DNA from: Bacteroidota bacterium | Lineage (GTDB): Bacteria; Bacteroidota; Bacteroidia; Bacteroidales; ML635J-15 | Direction: 5' to 3' | Length of the DNA: 64,000 bases | Assembly (NCBI GenBank): GCA_029564465.1 | Contig: JAKQPY010000225.1 | Coordinates: 28,936-92,935, forward strand | Shown: positions 37,188 to 42,869 of the stretch, piece after piece | Layout of the letters: the number at the start of each line of letters is the position of its first letter | Position numbering within the stretch: position 1 is the stretch's first letter | Notes under the pieces: model-generated | Told to the model about the DNA's origin: nothing | Database searches by the model: none | The model's input: only the letters and a program-made list of their open reading frames with translations | Position numbers and translations under genes: made by a program

Positions 37188-38174
37188 ATGAATAATATTT
37201 TGAAAAGAGGTTTAAATAAATCGGAACGCTTGTTAATAGATTCCCTATTCAGAATCAAATGTGAAAATTTACTTGTCAAAAATAAAAAAGGAGCTAAAAT
37301 ATTGTGTTATCATGGGTTGGATTTAATCGAAAACAAACGATTAAATATGCGGTTCTATTCTGTAGAAAGCTTAGAAAAGCATTTTTACTATTTTAGAAAA
37401 TATTTTAATCCCATTTCTGTAGGCGATTTTTTTAATAATAAATTCGATAGTTCAAGGTTTAATATTGCAATAACTTTCGATGATGGGTATAAAAATAATT
37501 TTAAATATTTAATTCCTCTGGCCGAAAAATATAAGATTCCTGTTTCAATTTATATTACTGGAATAAACAATAGTGATTATGATTTTCTGTGGTCAGATTT
37601 TGCGGATATTGTTTCACTATATAGTAGTAAAAATCAAATTTCAATAGCAGGAAAAGAATTTTTCAAAAAAAGAAACAAATACCTTGATGAAAATGGGATG
37701 AGCATAAAAGGCTTTATAAAACTAAAAGGTGATTTCGAAACAAAAAAGGAATTTATTAATTGTTTTCCTGATTTTAAAGAAATGTGTAACAAATATTCTC
37801 TTGACGATTATTGGCAATTAATGTCGGACGAAGAGATAAAAAATGCTTCAAAGTCAGAATTTATAACCATCGGATCTCATGCTTTTTTTCACAACAACCT
37901 TGATAATATTCCAATTAACGATGCTGTTAATGAAATGCGTTCCTCAAAAAACTATTTAGAGGGTTTGATTCAGAAGTCTGTTGAGGAAATAGCTTATCCC
38001 GATGGAGCATATTCACGAGATATTATTTCAGAAGCTGAACAGATCGGTTTTGTGCGTCAACTGGCGGTCGCATATAAGCATCACGAGGATATTAATGACA
38101 ACAGAATTCAAGATAGATTCGGAATGTATCCGGTTTATTCCAATAATTGTCAAATTTTTCAAATAGTAAAATAA
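37188..38174 (+). CDS. Polysaccharide deacetylase (CE4 / NodB-like)
   Basis: AITFDDGYKNN is the NodB motif 1. ITIGSHAFFH and AYPDG follow. Confidence 0.75.
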   Translation: MNNILKRGLNKSERLLIDSLFRIKCENLLVKNKKGAKILCYHGLDLIENKRLNMRFYSVESLEKHFYYFRKYFNPISVGDFFNNKFDSSRFNIAITFDDGYKNNFKYLIPLAEKYKIPVSIYITGINNSDYDFLWSDFADIVSLYSSKNQISIAGKEFFKKRNKYLDENGMSIKGFIKLKGDFETKKEFINCFPDFKEMCNKYSLDDYWQLMSDEEIKNASKSEFITIGSHAFFHNNLDNIPINDAVNEMRSSKNYLEGLIQKSVEEIAYPDGAYSRDIISEAEQIGFVRQLAVAYKHHEDINDNRIQDRFGMYPVYSNNCQIFQIVK

Positions 38175-38175
38175 T

Positions 38176-39105
38176 ATGAATTATACATTCAAAATAGTGG
38201 GCAAAGAAATTGTACCTGAGTTTACTTTGGTTTTTAATAAAAATAAACAAAAAAAAATTAACCCCGGTTATTTTTTAAAAAAATTTTCTTCTCCCACTGA
38301 ATTGGAATATGTTGGTTCGGTAGCTTACGATGAGTACGGCAAATTGGTATCCCATATTTGCACAATTCCGATAAAACTTTATTATAAAGGAAATATTATT
38401 AACGCGGGCTTTGCTGCTGATAATCTTACAGATATTAATCACAGGCGGAATGGGCTGTTCAGAAAAACGACGGAGTTAATGATTGACCATTTAAGAAATG
38501 AAGGAATTATGAAGCTATTGTTTTCATTACCAAACCCGCCTAACTTTATTGGGTTTGTTGAACATCTCAACTATACACATGTTGATGATTTTCTCAGCTT
38601 TGATTTGAATACAAAATGTATTTTACCAATTGTGAAATTATTTAATAAATTTAAATTGTTTAAAGTAAGACATCTGTATTTTAAGTTTATTATATTTTTG
38701 CTTGGTGTAAAAAAGAAAGGGTACATGAGCAACTCATTAATTGATGACGGTCAGGCGTCTTTTGTTCATGACGAAGTGTTTTTTAGATACAAAAAATATG
38801 ATAATAAGTATCTTATAAAAATTCGAGAAAACACAATTTGGTTTAAAATCGAGGATGGTATGGTAATTGGAGATTTTAATTACAAGGATGACAAAGACTT
38901 TACTATTGCCCTTAAGAAGTTTTGTTACATGTCCGGAATTCATAAAGTTTTGTTTAGAGTGTGTTCCGAAACAAAACAATATAGGTTTTTAAATTCATTC
39001 TTGAATGTAACCTCGAAATCGCCAATTTGTATGATAAATATTTCTAATGAAGACATTGATTTAAGTAAAATAAAACTTGTTTTTGCAGATAGCAATACAT
39101 TTTAA
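38176..39105 (+). CDS. GNAT-like acyltransferase
   Basis: DINHRRNGLFRKTTELMIDHLRNEG resembles the GNAT acyl-CoA-binding motif A. Immediately downstream of the deacetylase, 1 nt after its stop codon. Confidence 0.5.
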   Translation: MNYTFKIVGKEIVPEFTLVFNKNKQKKINPGYFLKKFSSPTELEYVGSVAYDEYGKLVSHICTIPIKLYYKGNIINAGFAADNLTDINHRRNGLFRKTTELMIDHLRNEGIMKLLFSLPNPPNFIGFVEHLNYTHVDDFLSFDLNTKCILPIVKLFNKFKLFKVRHLYFKFIIFLLGVKKKGYMSNSLIDDGQASFVHDEVFFRYKKYDNKYLIKIRENTIWFKIEDGMVIGDFNYKDDKDFTIALKKFCYMSGIHKVLFRVCSETKQYRFLNSFLNVTSKSPICMINISNEDIDLSKIKLVFADSNTF

Positions 39106-39117
39106 AACACTTATTAA

Positions 39118-40830: not shown

Positions 40831-40836
40831 TTTAAC

Positions 40837-41844
40837 ATGAAAATTGTAAAATCCCTTGCAGAATTAAATGTTGAAGAAAAATCATTCCCAATTTTTTTTT
40901 GGGAATCTTGGCTCAAGCTACAGGGCTCCAATAATTTTAATTCTCACTTATTTTTTGATGATGTTTTTGAAATCGTTATTCCATTTGTAATATATAATTT
41001 GAGATTTTTAAATAAAGCAAATTATATATATAAGCCATTAAAGCTTGATGGTACTGAATTGAACATTGAAGAAGAAAAAAACGCAATTGACACATTTCAC
41101 TCATTCCTGAAAAAGTCGAAAATTTGCGATGTAATTTTTCCGCCACAGCATATTTGTAACTTCAAAAGTATTCCAACCAAAGTTAAATACTTTAGTTTAG
41201 GGATAATTAAACTAGATATTAGTCAAGATGAAAGTATGTTACTAAAAAATATGAGACCCAATTATCGCAATGAAATAAAAAAAGCGATAAATTCTGAAAT
41301 ATTTTATGACTTCAATCTTGACTATCTTGACGCATTTTATTCATTATATCACGAGACTCAAATTAGGCAGAACTTAACATACTTTGAAAAAACACATTTT
41401 ATTGAATATAGTAAACGCTTATCTTCAAATTCTTTATTTGGTGTCGCAAAAACTGGTAATAAATTAGAGTCTGGTGTTTTTATCTATTTTGACAAACATT
41501 TTGCTTATTATGATAGCGCCAGTAATGCAAAAGATTCATTATATTCTGGCCTAAACAAAGCACTTTTATTTTTGGCAATTCTACATTTAAAAAATCTGGA
41601 GGTTAAATGTTTTATTCTTGGTGGTTACCGCAATCCTAAACGCACAGATGCAAAACACAATGGGATACAGAATTTTAAACTTCGATTTGGCTCTTATATT
41701 GAAGATGGGTATCATTTTATTAAGGTAATTAACCCATTAAAATATCATTTATTTATGTTGGCATTGAAACTAAAATCAATAATTACAGGTAGAGACCTGG
41801 GATTTATTAATAAATCGGGACTTGAATTTAAAAAATCAAAATAA
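40837..41844 (+). CDS. FemAB-like / Acetyltransf_6-type aminoacyl- or acyl-transferase (GNAT superfamily)
   Basis: A protein of ~335 aa. MRPNYRNEIKKA resembles the FemABX ..R.NIRKA motif, and the layout looks like a two-lobed GNAT. Low-resolution call. Confidence 0.45.
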   Translation: MKIVKSLAELNVEEKSFPIFFWESWLKLQGSNNFNSHLFFDDVFEIVIPFVIYNLRFLNKANYIYKPLKLDGTELNIEEEKNAIDTFHSFLKKSKICDVIFPPQHICNFKSIPTKVKYFSLGIIKLDISQDESMLLKNMRPNYRNEIKKAINSEIFYDFNLDYLDAFYSLYHETQIRQNLTYFEKTHFIEYSKRLSSNSLFGVAKTGNKLESGVFIYFDKHFAYYDSASNAKDSLYSGLNKALLFLAILHLKNLEVKCFILGGYRNPKRTDAKHNGIQNFKLRFGSYIEDGYHFIKVINPLKYHLFMLALKLKSIITGRDLGFINKSGLEFKKSK

Positions 41845-42869
41845 TGCAGAATAAGCATCTTATACTAACTTTTGATTATGAACTTTTTTTAGGCAAACAA
41901 AGTGGTACAGTTGATAATTGCTTGATAATTCCAACAAATCATTTGTTGGAGTTGTTCTCTAAATATAGTATTCAAGCTATATTTTTCGTTGATACAGTGT
42001 ATTTAATGAGAATGGAGGAATTGGCTAATGATTATCAATTAGTTAAAGAGGATTTACAAAAAATACGAAACCAGCTCACTCTTCTTGTTGAAAGTGGGCA
42101 TTACATTTTTCATCATATTCATCCACACTGGCTTAATGCGAAATATTTGCATGAAATAAATCAATGGGACTTGTCAGATACTTCTAAACTTAGGTTTAAG
42201 GATATTACCGATTCAGAACGAGAAATGATTTTTGCATATTCTAATCAGTTTCTTGTTGAGATATATTCAGGAGCCAATGTTAATAAAACACCTTGCGGAT
42301 ACAGGGCTGGTGGCCTTTTTATTGAACCATTATGTGATATTATCCCATATTTCAACACCTATAAAATTAAATATGAATTTAGTGTAATTCCCGGAGACAA
42401 GCGTGAAGATAATATTTCTATACATGATTTTTCTAATGCCCCCAAAAACAGATTTTATAATTTTGAGGATAATTTAAATGAAGAAACCCCTTCAGGAAAA
42501 TTTATTGAATTTCCGATATCAACAATTAACATTCGATATATTTCAAAAGTATTCAACGGATTATACTATAGGTATTACAGAAATAAGATAAATCTCAAAT
42601 GTTATGGAGATGGTTTTTCTGTGAGTGCGAAAATATCGTCTTCCTCAAAAAAGAAAAGCATAATAGATTATGTCTCAATGAAAATTCCTGCAAGTATCGA
42701 AATATTAAATCCAACAATTATTCATATTTACAAAAAACATATTAATAAGAATTCATATTTTCATTTTCTATCTCACCCAAAGCTCTTGACCCCTGAAAGT
42801 ATAAATCAGTTGGAATCTTTATTAATTTATACAACGAAAAAATATTCAATTCTATTTTTCGAAGATTGA
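41844..42869 (+). CDS. Polysaccharide-deacetylase-like protein (divergent CE4)
   Basis: N-terminal ILTFDYELFLGKQSG and HHIHPHW histidine clusters. The start overlaps the stop of the FemAB-like gene (ATAATG). Confidence 0.5.
   Translation: MQNKHLILTFDYELFLGKQSGTVDNCLIIPTNHLLELFSKYSIQAIFFVDTVYLMRMEELANDYQLVKEDLQKIRNQLTLLVESGHYIFHHIHPHWLNAKYLHEINQWDLSDTSKLRFKDITDSEREMIFAYSNQFLVEIYSGANVNKTPCGYRAGGLFIEPLCDIIPYFNTYKIKYEFSVIPGDKREDNISIHDFSNAPKNRFYNFEDNLNEETPSGKFIEFPISTINIRYISKVFNGLYYRYYRNKINLKCYGDGFSVSAKISSSSKKKSIIDYVSMKIPASIEILNPTIIHIYKKHINKNSYFHFLSHPKLLTPESINQLESLLIYTTKKYSILFFED

What the first reader, a model, noticed from the sequence alone, without database searches (positions are those of the whole stretch)
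37188..42869. Two deacetylase plus GNAT-superfamily transferase pairs suggest de-N-acetylation followed by re-acylation of amino sugars
Pair 1 is a CE4 deacetylase (37188-38174) with a GNAT-like gene starting 1 nt after its stop (38176-39105). Pair 2 is a FemAB/Acetyltransf_6-like protein (40837-41844) whose stop overlaps the start of a divergent CE4-like protein (41844-42869).

CE4 enzymes remove N-acetyl groups from GlcNAc- or ManNAc-type residues. FemABX-type enzymes transfer aminoacyl groups and GNATs transfer acyl groups. Tight coupling of the two activities, seen twice in one locus together with wecB (ManNAc supply), points to a glycan in which N-acetyl groups are replaced by other acyl or aminoacyl substituents. 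I cannot name a characterised pathway with this arrangement.
Basis: inference. Interest (0 to 1): 0.55.

Follow-up and report, generated by a model that had tools for sequence, protein, structure and literature searches.

The report
Two deacetylase–acyltransferase glycan-editing gene cassettes
A surface-polysaccharide gene cluster of an uncultured Bacteroidales bacterium carries two conserved gene pairs that most likely strip the acetyl group from an amino sugar and put another acyl or amino-acid group in its place; this logic is already known from other systems but has never been worked out for these particular, widespread protein families.

Summary
All four ORFs sit at the stated coordinates, and both junctions (1-nt spacer; TAATG overlap) are as described.

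**Gene calls**
- 37188: a canonical CE4 deacetylase with TFDD and HxxxH.
- 38176: an Eis-like tandem-GNAT acyltransferase.
- 40837: a FemABX-family protein that keeps the F-K motif.
- 41844: an unannotated, very divergent NodB-fold protein (AF2 pLDDT 94).

**Conservation**
- Both pairs are conserved as pairs at 23-51% identity.
- Pair 2 is really a block: hexapeptide acyltransferase, FemAB-like, CE4-like, often followed by a GT4 and wecB. GT–CE4-like and FemAB–GT fusions occur elsewhere.

**Interpretation**
- None of the four proteins has an evident signal peptide (judged by eye), so they probably edit UDP- or lipid-linked sugars before flipping.
- De-N-acetylation followed by re-acylation is plausible but not proven. 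The acyl groups and the acceptor sugar are unknown.

**Precedent**
- wecB–deacetylase–FemAB trios are annotated in PEP-CTERM EPS loci.
- Caulobacter HfsH/HfsK was proposed to work this way.
- BD-12 biosynthesis shows deacetylation followed by tRNA-dependent glycylation of an amino sugar by a Fem-like enzyme.

**Verdict:** a new variant of a known kind, of moderate interest.

The parts
32310..33791 (+). Wzx-type flippase, the first gene of the low-GC glycan operon (context)
   Evidence: Polysacc_synt_3, 247 bits. GC is 0.29-0.34 across 32-45 kb against about 0.43-0.48 in the flanks.
34219..35915 (+). DegT-type sugar aminotransferase (34219-35292) and PglD/NeuD-type N-acetyltransferase (35286-35915). 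This is a separate amino-sugar branch of the same locus (context).
   Evidence: PF01041, 267 bits; TIGR03570, 190 bits.
35912..37162 (+). GT1-family glycosyltransferase preceding module A
   Evidence: Glycos_transf_1, 47.7 bits. 87% identical in sister locus L017.
37188..38174 (+). Module A deacetylase: a canonical CE4 (NodB-homology) enzyme with no evident signal peptide and an insertion of about 130 aa between motifs 1 and 2
   Evidence: PF01522, 61 bits. The TFDD (D98 D99), H231-x3-H235 and YPxG motifs align to B. cereus/anthracis CE4 structures 6go1 and 4hd5. They are invariant in 7 homologues.
38176..39105 (+). Module A acyltransferase: an Eis-like tandem-GNAT protein, presumably an acyl-CoA-dependent N-acyltransferase
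   Evidence: The family has 526 representatives, all about 310 aa. 59 of 61 match Acetyltransf_9. The profile hits Eis-type GNATs 3n7z, 2i00 and 2hv2. AF2 pLDDT is 96. The Foldseek top hits are Eis-family proteins and N-myristoyltransferases.
39118..40263 (+). GT4 glycosyltransferase that usually follows module A
   Evidence: Pfam GT4/GT1. The same position is occupied by a GT4 in L017-L019, L100 and L010.
40267..40830 (+). Module B hexapeptide-repeat acyltransferase, closest to the WbbJ/LacA-type O-acetyltransferases
   Evidence: Hexapep, 57.5 bits. The best NCBIfam hit is WbbJ, 6e-17. It lies immediately upstream of the FemAB-like gene in 9 of 9 Bacteroidota loci that have upstream sequence.
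40837..41844 (+). Module B FemABX-family transferase with no coiled-coil insert, the same size as W. viridescens FemX
   Evidence: PF02388, 31.6 bits. The family profile hits aa-tRNA-dependent peptide synthase 9wqw (5e-11), FmhB 6snr, FemA and FemX. The FK motif aligns with F280 K281.
41844..42869 (+). Module B divergent NodB-fold (CE4-like) putative deacetylase, annotated 'hypothetical protein' in public records
   Evidence: 705 or more homologues. Invariant residues are T9 F10 D11 Y12 E13, D50, H91 H93 H95, R154 and H311. AF2 pLDDT is 94. The Foldseek top hits are HP0310, 3rxz, PuuE and Vibrio COD, with probability 1.0 and TM about 0.5.
42979..44268 (+). GT4-like glycosyltransferase (GT4c) that often follows, and is sometimes fused to, the CE4-like protein
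   Evidence: Weak Glyco_transf_4 hit. It lies downstream of the CE4-like gene in many loci. It is fused to the CE4-like domain in L039 and L088.
44269..45324 (+). Non-hydrolysing UDP-GlcNAc 2-epimerase (WecB), which supplies UDP-ManNAc
   Evidence: PF02350, 289 bits; TIGR00236, 262 bits against a cut-off of 210. Present in 20 of 30 CE4-like loci that have at least 4 kb of flank on both sides.

Best explanation
The region is the core of a Wzx-dependent surface-polysaccharide (capsule or O-antigen-like) locus of a Bacteroidales bacterium. It holds two cassettes that edit the N-substituent of hexosamine residues on the cytoplasmic side, before flipping.

Cassette A (37188-40263):
- A canonical metal-dependent CE4 enzyme removes the N-acetyl group from a GlcNAc- or ManNAc-type residue of a nucleotide- or undecaprenyl-linked intermediate.
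- An Eis-like tandem-GNAT enzyme re-acylates the freed amine from an acyl-CoA, probably one other than acetyl-CoA.
- A GT4 glycosyltransferase completes the cassette.

Cassette B (40267-45324):
- A highly divergent NodB-fold enzyme de-N-acetylates a residue that is probably derived from ManNAc. WecB supplies the sugar and the adjacent GT4-like enzyme installs it.
- A FemX-sized FemABX enzyme acylates the amine, most likely with an amino acid from aminoacyl-tRNA.
- A WbbJ-like hexapeptide acetyltransferase adds an acetyl group to the sugar or to the new aminoacyl group.

Shown: gene identities, folds, conserved catalytic-type residues, and conserved linkage and fusions.

Inferred: N- rather than O-deacetylation, the order of the steps, the donors, the acceptor sugar, and the cytoplasmic location (no signal peptide or hydrophobic N-terminus seen by eye; no predictor was run).
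For: Family and fold assignments.

Catalytic-type residues:
- CE4 at 37188: D98 D99 and H231/H235 are invariant.
- CE4-like at 41844: D11, H91/H93/H95, R154 and H311 are invariant in 46 sequences. They sit at or just after predicted strand ends in the CE4 motif order.
- FemAB-like: F280 is nearly invariant and K281 invariant. They align with the FK of FmhB and of a tRNA-dependent peptide synthase.

Linkage of pair 2:
- The CE4-like gene directly follows the FemAB-like gene in 11 of 13 distinct Bacteroidota loci.
- In 80 metagenome loci found through the CE4-like protein, the gene directly upstream is FemAB-like in 26 of 57 informative cases.
- Among loci with at least 4 kb of flank on both sides, a FemAB-like gene is present in 22 of 30 and wecB in 20 of 30.
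- Fusions exist: GT4c-like+CE4-like (L039, L088) and FemAB+GT4 (L050).
- In sister locus L017 the hexapeptide and FemAB genes are replaced by another N-acetyltransferase type (AAC(3)-like, PF02522), still overlapping the CE4-like gene.

Linkage of pair 1: a homologue of the 37188 CE4 lies next to the GNAT-like homologue in L007, L017-19, L100/101, L103/104, L105/106 and L107, at 23-80% GNAT identity.

Precedents:
- HfsH/HfsK proposal (PMC5362036).
- wecB–deacetylase–FemAB–GT1 in PEP-CTERM loci (PMC3684757).
- Deacetylase followed by Fem-like Gly-tRNA-dependent acylation of a sugar C2-amine in BD-12 (PMC10156733, PMC12945691).
- A FemAB gene in the C. difficile peptidylamido-sugar flagellin glycan locus (PMC5207246).
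Against: - There is no biochemical or glycan-structure evidence for any member of these four families.
- The CE4-like protein is below the Pfam threshold and its profile has no sequence-level match in the PDB. Structural TM-scores are only about 0.5. Its active-site geometry could not be inspected.
- No catalytic-acid His (CE4 motif 5) could be identified by sequence in the 37188 family.
- CE4 enzymes also include O-deacetylases.
- In 31 of 57 informative loci the gene directly upstream of the CE4-like gene is not FemAB-like. SAM methyltransferases or glycosyltransferases are common there.
- FemAB-like homologues exist without an adjacent CE4-like gene (L004/5, L007). In L004/5 they sit beside a LuxC/LuxE/AMP-ligase/ACP-like block, which hints at a non-tRNA acyl donor in those loci.
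- The hexapeptide enzyme resembles O- rather than N-acetyltransferases.
- The locus also encodes a DegT aminotransferase, which could supply an alternative acceptor amine.
Confidence: 0.55

Rival explanations
1. The enzymes act independently. The deacetylases leave free amines, giving a partly cationic or zwitterionic glycan as in PNAG, Pel or the holdfast. The GNAT, FemAB-like and hexapeptide enzymes decorate other positions, such as O-acetylation or the amines made by DegT. On this view the adjacency reflects co-inheritance of tailoring genes, not consecutive steps.
For: - Free-amine products are the usual outcome of CE4 action on exopolysaccharides (established knowledge; HfsH discussion in PMC5362036 and PMC8449245).
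- The CE4-like gene is often preceded by methyltransferases or glycosyltransferases rather than by a FemAB-like gene.
- A DegT aminotransferase is present in the locus.
- The hexapeptide enzyme is WbbJ-like, an O-acetyltransferase type.
Against: - Immediate adjacency with overlapping or 1-nt-spaced stop and start is kept down to about 23-37% identity for both pairs, while the surrounding genes vary.
- In L017 the partner is swapped for a different N-acetyltransferase family at the same position.
- DegT already has its own PglD-type N-acetyltransferase next to it.
- The L105/106 pair stands alone as a two-gene unit.
Confidence: 0.25
2. The 41844 protein is not a deacetylase. It would be a NodB-fold enzyme of different chemistry (as PuuE allantoinase is within this fold), or a non-catalytic partner that presents the lipid-linked substrate to the FemAB-like enzyme and the glycosyltransferase.
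For: - It is below the Pfam threshold (15.8 against 23.1).
- Its profile has no PDB sequence match.
- hhalign against the 37188 family is not significant.
- Motif 1 is TFDYE instead of TFDD.
- The top structural hits include PuuE allantoinase and a CE4 pseudoenzyme.
- GT fusions suggest tight complex formation.
Against: - There are 32 invariant positions, including Asp, three His, Arg and a C-terminal His, in the order of CE4 motifs 1, 2, 3 and 5. Such conservation is not expected of a pseudoenzyme.
- About 11 of the 120 listed homologues do carry PF01522 hits.
- 7 of 46 match PdaA and 1 of 46 matches TIGR03006.
- The fold hits are dominated by true de-N-acetylases.
Confidence: 0.12
3. The public annotation is right, and the FemAB-like protein builds peptidoglycan interpeptide bridges ('peptidoglycan bridge formation glycyltransferase FemA/FemB family protein').
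For: NCBI and JGI names for P0001 and its homologues. Weak NCBIfam matches to FemX (NF047883) in 11 of 27 family members.
Against: - The gene is always embedded in polysaccharide loci between glycosyltransferases, acetyltransferases and wecB.
- It is fused to a GT4 in L050.
- Its scores are far below every curated equivalog cut-off (21 against 260; 13.5 against 500).
- Bacteroidota peptidoglycan is not known to have Fem-type bridges (established knowledge).
Confidence: 0.03

Closest known systems
PEP-CTERM/XrtA exopolysaccharide loci: XrtA-system polysaccharide deacetylase (TIGR03006) plus FemAB-family XrtA-associated protein (TIGR03019), next to UDP-GlcNAc 2-epimerase and a GT1
   Same: The same gene set and neighbourhood: wecB/epsC, deacetylase, FemAB-related protein and GT1 are adjacent in Rubrivivax, Thauera and Rhodoferax (PMC3684757). 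20 of 27 members of the window's FemAB family give their best NCBIfam match to TIGR03019. Function is uncharacterised in both.
   Different: - Scores are far below the equivalog cut-offs (21 against 260 bits). Only 1 of 46 CE4-like proteins touches TIGR03006.
- The Bacteroidales host shows no PEP-CTERM or exosortase context in the window.
- Gene order is FemAB then deacetylase, with an extra hexapeptide acyltransferase.
- A second CE4+GNAT cassette lies in the same locus.
Caulobacter crescentus holdfast HfsH (CE4 deacetylase) and HfsK (FemAB-like GNAT N-acyltransferase)
   Same: A cytoplasmic CE4 deacetylase and a Fem-like acyltransferase act on precursors of one polysaccharide. [quoted passage not shown]
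   Different: - hfsK is unlinked to hfsH in Caulobacter (PMC8449245). Here the genes overlap.
- HfsK binds c-di-GMP, which was not tested here.
- The acyl group is still unknown in Caulobacter.
BD-12 / glycinothricin (streptothricin-type) biosynthesis: N-acetyl-gulosamine deacetylase followed by the Fem-like Orf11
   Same: This is a biochemically characterised sequence. An amino sugar is installed as the N-acetyl form and deacetylated. Its C2-amine is then aminoacylated by a FemABX-like enzyme using Gly-tRNA (PMC10156733, PMC12945691). It is the exact chemical logic proposed for module B. The best PDB relative of the window's FemAB family is a tRNA-dependent peptide synthase.
   Different: It is an Actinobacterial small-molecule antibiotic pathway, not a polysaccharide. 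The family of its deacetylase was not compared with the window proteins. There is no GT4, wecB or hexapeptide context.
Other deacetylate-then-reacylate pathways: LpxC/LpxD (lipid A), NodB/NodA (Nod factors), MshB/MshC/MshD (mycothiol), and the teicoplanin GlcNAc deacetylase with its N-acyltransferase
   Same: The same two-step logic applies to GlcNAc-derived residues. NodB is itself a CE4 enzyme. Mycothiol adds an amino acid and then N-acetylates it, which parallels a possible role of the hexapeptide enzyme. (Established knowledge; not tested here.)
   Different: The acyltransferase families differ: LpxD is a hexapeptide enzyme, NodA is its own family, MshC is a ligase, and most of the deacetylases are not CE4. 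The substrates are not polysaccharide repeat units.
Eis-family aminoglycoside N-acetyltransferases
   Same: The 38176 protein shares the tandem-GNAT architecture and an HRRxGL-type motif. Its best sequence and fold matches are Eis homologues. Eis enzymes acetylate amines of amino sugars.
   Different: It is about 310 aa and lacks the third (SCP2-like) domain of the roughly 400-aa Eis proteins. It is a conserved partner of a CE4 deacetylase in glycan loci. Identity to Eis proteins is only 8-12%.

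Membership tests
CE4 / Polysacc_deac_1 (PF01522): protein 37188-38174 | Profile match above the curated threshold | tested here: met
   61 bits against 23.1.
CE4 / Polysacc_deac_1 (PF01522): protein 37188-38174 | Motif 1 TFDD (catalytic base and metal Asp) and motif 2 H-x3-H (metal His pair) | tested here: met
   T96 F97 D98 D99 and H231/H235 align to 6go1 and 4hd5. They are invariant in 7 homologues.
CE4 / Polysacc_deac_1 (PF01522): protein 37188-38174 | Motif 3 RxPY and motif 5 LxH (catalytic acid His) | tested here: inconclusive
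   Motif 3 reads AYPDG. The Tyr-Pro-x-Gly part is invariant, but the Arg is absent. No invariant His lies near the C-terminus; the invariant residues there are D301, D304 and R310.
CE4 / NodB-fold deacetylase: protein 41844-42869 | Profile match above the curated threshold | tested here: not met
   PF01522, 15.8 bits against 23.1. No NCBIfam hit. The family profile has no sequence hit in the PDB. About 11 of 120 homologues carry PF01522.
CE4 / NodB-fold deacetylase: protein 41844-42869 | NodB-homology (beta/alpha) barrel fold | tested here: met
CE4 / NodB-fold deacetylase: protein 41844-42869 | Asp-His-His metal triad with catalytic Asp and His | tested here: inconclusive
   Invariant D11 (in TFDYE, at the end of strand 1), H91/H93/H95 (at and just after the end of strand 87-92), R154 and H311 follow the order of CE4 motifs 1, 2, 3 and 5. 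The 3D geometry could not be inspected.
FemABX (PF02388): protein 40837-41844 | Profile match above the curated threshold and similarity to solved Fem proteins | tested here: met
   31.6 bits against 24. The family profile hits 9wqw (5e-11), FmhB 6snr (3e-10), FemA 1lrz and FemX 1ne9.
FemABX (PF02388): protein 40837-41844 | Conserved C-terminal G-x-x-x-F-K-x-x-(F/W)-G motif (the Phe-Lys pair of FemX implicated in catalysis and tRNA binding) | tested here: met
   F280 is nearly invariant and K281 invariant. They align to the FK of FmhB and of 9wqw. The role of these residues comes from the FemX literature (recalled from memory).
FemABX (PF02388): protein 40837-41844 | Use of aminoacyl-tRNA as donor | not testable with these tools
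   Needs an enzyme assay. A homologue lying beside a LuxC/LuxE/AMP-ligase block (L004/5) leaves other donors open.
TIGR03019 (XrtA/PEP-CTERM FemAB) and TIGR03006 (XrtA deacetylase) equivalogs | Score above the equivalog cut-off | tested here: not met
   TIGR03019: 21.4 bits against 260. The best family member reaches E 1e-11. TIGR03006: no hit for the window protein, and 1 of 46 family members at 3e-7.
GNAT, Eis-like (Acetyltransf_9, PF13527): protein 38176-39105 | Profile match above the curated threshold | tested here: inconclusive
   The window protein scores 23.1 bits against 25. 59 of 61 family members match at E<=0.01, with a best E of 9e-14.
GNAT, Eis-like (Acetyltransf_9, PF13527): protein 38176-39105 | Tandem GNAT fold | tested here: met
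   AF2 pLDDT 96. Foldseek hits 2hv2, 2i00, 4my3, 3n7z, Eis and N-myristoyltransferases at E 1e-12 to 1e-9 with TM about 0.6.
GNAT, Eis-like (Acetyltransf_9, PF13527): protein 38176-39105 | Acyl-CoA pyrophosphate-binding motif (Q/R-x-x-G-x-G/A) | tested here: inconclusive
   The window protein has H89-R-R-N-G93-L-F, with G93 and L94 nearly invariant. The last Gly/Ala is replaced. CoA binding was not modelled.
WecB (TIGR00236): protein 44269-45324 | Score above the equivalog cut-off | tested here: met
   262 bits against 210.15.

The most novel reading that the evidence does not exclude
The FemAB-like enzyme uses aminoacyl-tRNA to put an amino acid on a hexosamine amine unmasked by the divergent NodB-fold deacetylase. 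This would happen while the sugar is on its lipid carrier, next to the glycosyltransferase. The glycan would then carry N-aminoacyl (possibly N-acetyl-aminoacyl) ManN or GlcN residues. Because the FemAB–CE4-like–wecB block recurs in hundreds of environmental contigs, and in diverged form in PEP-CTERM and holdfast systems, tRNA-dependent aminoacylation of surface polysaccharides would be a widespread and so far unrecognised modification in Gram-negative bacteria.
Probability: 0.3. Interest if true: 0.7.

Novelty: new variant of a known kind. Interest (0 to 1): 0.42.

Why it matters
- If the coupling is real, these cassettes are a general way for bacteria to diversify the N-substituents of capsule or O-antigen sugars. 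That would affect charge, antigenicity and phage or immune recognition.
- It would assign a role to a large family of 'hypothetical' NodB-fold proteins: at least 705 database clusters and at least 492 metagenome loci.
- It would also assign a role to a family of Eis-like GNATs with 526 representative clusters.
- It offers a tractable, tightly linked model for a question left open for Caulobacter HfsK and for the PEP-CTERM FemAB proteins: what do Fem-like enzymes transfer onto polysaccharides?
- It would correct the misleading 'peptidoglycan bridge formation' annotation of these genes.

Tried and rejected
2. A profile search of the CE4-like family against PDB sequences gave only spurious coiled-coil hits. 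hhalign between the two deacetylase families was not significant (probability 0.8%). The two CE4s are not close paralogues, and motif equivalence for 41844 is inferred from residue order and secondary structure.
3. Single-sequence PDB searches for 38176 and 40837 were uninformative. Family profiles were needed.
4. The word-indexed homologue search for 38176 found only 2 proteins. The exhaustive HMMER search found 526.
5. The B. ovatus CPS deacetylase BoPDA (PMC11713874) was checked as a possible relative and rejected. It is a 499-aa lipoprotein of family PF15421 with a CBM insertion.
6. The peptidoglycan-bridge annotation was rejected on context.
7. A broad literature search for FemABX with polysaccharide and amino sugar returned mostly irrelevant omics papers.
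8. Maruyama 2016 (PMC4959175) is not held in the library. It is cited only through PMC10156733 and PMC12945691.
9. My early note calling the upstream minus-strand genes 'SusC/D-like' was never tested. The 523-aa protein at 26590-28161 in fact carries a Por_Secre_tail domain.
10. Taxonomic breadth beyond Bacteroidota could not be established. The 80 best metagenome loci have GC 0.25-0.61 with a median of 0.37, and no taxonomy.

Full report
**Observation**

The junctions are as described. For pair 1 the stop is TAA at 38172-38174, followed by one base and then ATG at 38176. For pair 2 the sequence is TAATG, with base 41844 shared between stop and start.

The ORFs lie in a 13-gene plus-strand operon at 32310-45324. 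Its GC content is 0.29-0.34, against about 0.43-0.48 in the flanks. The gene order is:
- Wzx flippase
- a 136-aa remnant
- DegT aminotransferase
- PglD-type N-acetyltransferase
- GT1
- CE4
- GNAT-like
- GT4
- hexapeptide acyltransferase
- FemAB-like
- CE4-like
- GT4-like
- WecB

The window protein P0001 is 100% identical to a protein of a Bacteroidales MAG.

**What the four proteins are**

*37188-38174.* This is a bona fide CE4 enzyme.
- PF01522 scores 61 bits against a threshold of 23.1.
- TFDD (D98 D99), H231-x3-H235 and a YPxG motif align residue for residue with B. cereus/anthracis CE4 structures.
- These residues are invariant in homologues down to 22% identity.
- The motif-3 Arg and a motif-5 His could not be identified.

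*38176-39105.* The window protein is just below the Pfam threshold (23.1 bits against 25).
- An exhaustive HMMER search found a family of 526 representatives, uniformly about 310 aa.
- 59 of 61 sampled members match Acetyltransf_9.
- The family profile hits Eis-type GNAT structures.
- The AF2 model has pLDDT 96.
- The model is a tandem-GNAT fold. Its best matches are Eis-family acetyltransferases and N-myristoyltransferases.
- It is therefore an acyl-CoA-type GNAT, not a FemX-type enzyme.

*40837-41844.* This protein passes PF02388 (31.6 bits against 24).
- Its family profile matches a tRNA-dependent peptide synthase (9wqw, 5e-11), S. aureus FmhB, FemA and W. viridescens FemX.
- The C-terminal FK motif is conserved (F280 K281).
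- It is the size of FemX and has no coiled-coil insert.

*41844-42869.* This protein is annotated 'hypothetical' in public records.
- It is below the Pfam threshold (15.8 bits against 23.1).
- It has no NCBIfam hit, and its family profile has no sequence match in the PDB.
- It has at least 705 homologues.
- There are 32 invariant positions, including TFDYE, D50, H91/H93/H95, R154 and H311.
- A confident AF2 model (pLDDT 94) has CE4-type NodB-fold proteins as its top PDB matches: HP0310, M. smegmatis 3rxz, Vibrio COD and the allantoinase PuuE. Probability is 1.0 and TM about 0.5.
- The conserved residues fall at or just after strand ends, in the order of CE4 motifs 1, 2, 3 and 5.
- I call it a divergent NodB-fold putative deacetylase. 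Formal CE4 membership is not established.

None of the four proteins has a hydrophobic N-terminus or signal peptide (direct reading).

**Conservation of pair 2**

Thirteen distinct Bacteroidota loci carry a FemAB-like homologue at 36-51% identity.
- In 11 of them the CE4-like gene follows directly, usually overlapping.
- In all 9 that have upstream sequence, the hexapeptide acyltransferase directly precedes the FemAB-like gene.
- The conserved unit is therefore hexapeptide acyltransferase, FemAB-like, CE4-like, often followed by the 429-aa GT4-like gene.

Eighty metagenome loci were fetched through the CE4-like protein.
- The gene directly upstream is FemAB-like in 26 of 57 informative cases.
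- Among the 30 loci with at least 4 kb on both sides, 22 contain a FemAB-like gene and 20 contain wecB.
- Where the upstream neighbour is not FemAB-like, it is usually a SAM methyltransferase (11 cases) or a GT1/GT4 (8). In 3 cases it is an AAC(3)-like N-acetyltransferase, and in 2 a hexapeptide enzyme.

Sister locus L017 is informative. Its left half is 67-87% identical to the window. There, the hexapeptide and FemAB genes are replaced by an AAC(3)-like gene that still overlaps the CE4-like gene. So the deacetylase-like protein keeps an N-acyltransferase partner even though the partner's family changes.

Single ORFs elsewhere fuse a GT4c-like domain to the CE4-like domain (L039, L088). Another fuses FemAB to GT4/GT1 and is directly followed by the CE4-like gene (L050). 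These fusions argue that the three activities work together at the glycosyl-transfer step.

**Conservation of pair 1**

A homologue of the 37188 CE4 lies next to the GNAT-like homologue in six independent lineages:
- L007 (25% GNAT identity)
- L017-19 (80%)
- L100/101 (38%)
- L103/104 (28%)
- L105/106 (25%; a stand-alone two-gene unit)
- L107 (23%; convergent orientation)

L010 is the only informative exception. A GT4 gene commonly follows the pair. The two cassettes co-occur, fully or in part, in the window and in L007, L008, L010, L017 and L069.

**Mechanism**

The best reading is two cassettes, each made of a glycosyltransferase, a de-N-acetylase and an N-acyltransferase. They would act on nucleotide- or lipid-linked intermediates before Wzx flipping.
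- Cassette A would use an acyl-CoA.
- Cassette B would probably use an aminoacyl-tRNA.
- WecB supplies UDP-ManNAc as the likely sugar for cassette B.
- The WbbJ-like hexapeptide enzyme adds an acetyl group, more likely to an oxygen. N-acetylation of a new aminoacyl group, as in mycothiol, is not excluded.

Only the identities, folds, conserved residues, linkage and fusions are shown. The chemistry is inferred.

The main rival is that the deacetylases simply leave free amines and the transferases act elsewhere. The tight, partner-swapping linkage argues against this, but it is not excluded.

**Comparison with known systems**

The arrangement is not unprecedented.
- PEP-CTERM EPS loci have adjacent wecB, deacetylase (TIGR03006), FemAB (TIGR03019) and GT1 genes (PMC3684757). 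The window's FemAB family is closest to TIGR03019 among NCBIfam models, but far below its cut-off.
- For the Caulobacter holdfast, HfsK (Fem-like GNAT) was proposed to acylate the amines exposed by the cytoplasmic CE4 HfsH. The acyl group is still unknown (PMC5362036, PMC8449245).
- In BD-12 biosynthesis an N-acetyl-gulosamine deacetylase acts, and a Fem-like enzyme adds Gly from Gly-tRNA to the sugar C2-amine (PMC10156733, PMC12945691). This is a characterised example of exactly the chemistry proposed.
- The C. difficile peptidylamido-sugar flagellin glycan locus also encodes a FemAB protein (PMC5207246).
- The P. fluorescens Pap cluster combines a cytoplasmic deacetylase with a CelD/GNAT protein (PMC7716237).

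What is new here:
- The CE4-like partner is a large, unannotated, highly divergent NodB-fold family.
- A hexapeptide acyltransferase is a fixed third member in Bacteroidota.
- GT fusions exist.
- A second conserved cassette pairs a CE4 with an Eis-like GNAT. The library searches run here turned up no description of it.

**Verdict**

It is a new variant of a known kind. Interest is moderate (0.42), mainly because it offers a clean, testable entry to the unresolved question of what Fem-like enzymes transfer onto polysaccharides.

Noticed in passing
window 33801-34211 (+): A 136-aa ORF. Its N-terminus (MLFNSIDFAIFLPIVFVLYW...) looks like the start of an MBOAT/AlgI-type O-acyltransferase, and its C-terminus has a faint SGNH hit (E 0.21). 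It is probably a deletion remnant. It is absent from sister locus L017, where DegT follows the flippase directly. A 479-aa ORF (L047:547-1986) is matched by it, and a 50% identical piece follows the CE4-like gene in L014.
   Followed up: partly
window 53359-60347 (+): A second glycan locus: a pseudaminic/legionaminic-type nonulosonic acid pathway. It comprises Polysacc_synt_2 dehydratase, DegT aminotransferase, CTP_transf_3 cytidylyltransferase, a PglD-like acetyltransferase, a weak GT1 and a NeuB synthase. It is interrupted at 55492-56907 by a Schlafen/AlbA_2–HATPase_c_4–HTH gene. An HpcH aldolase (60945) and another flippase-like gene (62661) follow.
   Followed up: partly
window 45377-52906 (-): A 2509-aa protein with internally repeated blocks and a C-terminus that looks like a type IX secretion sorting domain. 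It is wedged between the two glycan loci. No profile search was run on it.
   Followed up: no
window 32000-45400: The whole operon is 10-15 percentage points lower in GC than the flanks (0.29-0.34 against about 0.45). This is typical of horizontally exchanged glycan loci.
   Followed up: no
L004/L005 9023-15509: In this Bacteroidales MAG the FemAB-like homologue (43% identity) has no adjacent CE4-like gene. It abuts a block of LuxC, LuxE, AMP-ligase, split transketolase, short-chain dehydrogenase and a 78-aa ACP-sized ORF. This hints at an acyl-carrier-derived donor. A CE4-like homologue (P0074) appears to lie elsewhere on the same 70-kb contig, judged only from matching contig length.
   Followed up: partly
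L017 8135-9968: In the sister locus the hexapeptide and FemAB genes are replaced by a 269-aa AAC(3)-like (PF02522) protein whose gene overlaps the CE4-like gene. Two other metagenome loci show the same pairing.
   Followed up: partly
L039 3930-6224; L088 4834-7026; L050 3692-5992: Apparent gene fusions: a GT4c-like domain with the CE4-like domain (764 and 730 aa), and FemAB with GT4/GT1 (766 aa). All are uninterrupted ORFs. Sequencing or assembly errors were not excluded.
   Followed up: partly
L024 262-2546; L047 3921-5999; L027 4916-5998 and 10137-11165: Some loci carry two FemAB-like genes, in tandem in L024 and L047, upstream of one CE4-like gene. This is reminiscent of the sequential FemX/FemA/FemB additions in staphylococci and suggests peptide rather than single amino-acid substituents.
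   Followed up: no
L100 1-708 and 4006-5004; L015 3769-4443; L016 3495-4250: Additional, more distant CE4 paralogues occur in the same loci as the two cassettes, so up to three deacetylase-type genes can sit in one glycan locus.
   Followed up: no
window 26590-28161 (-): The 523-aa protein upstream of the locus carries a Por_Secre_tail (T9SS) domain. It is not SusD-like, as I first assumed from its position next to an 1130-aa ORF.
   Followed up: partly
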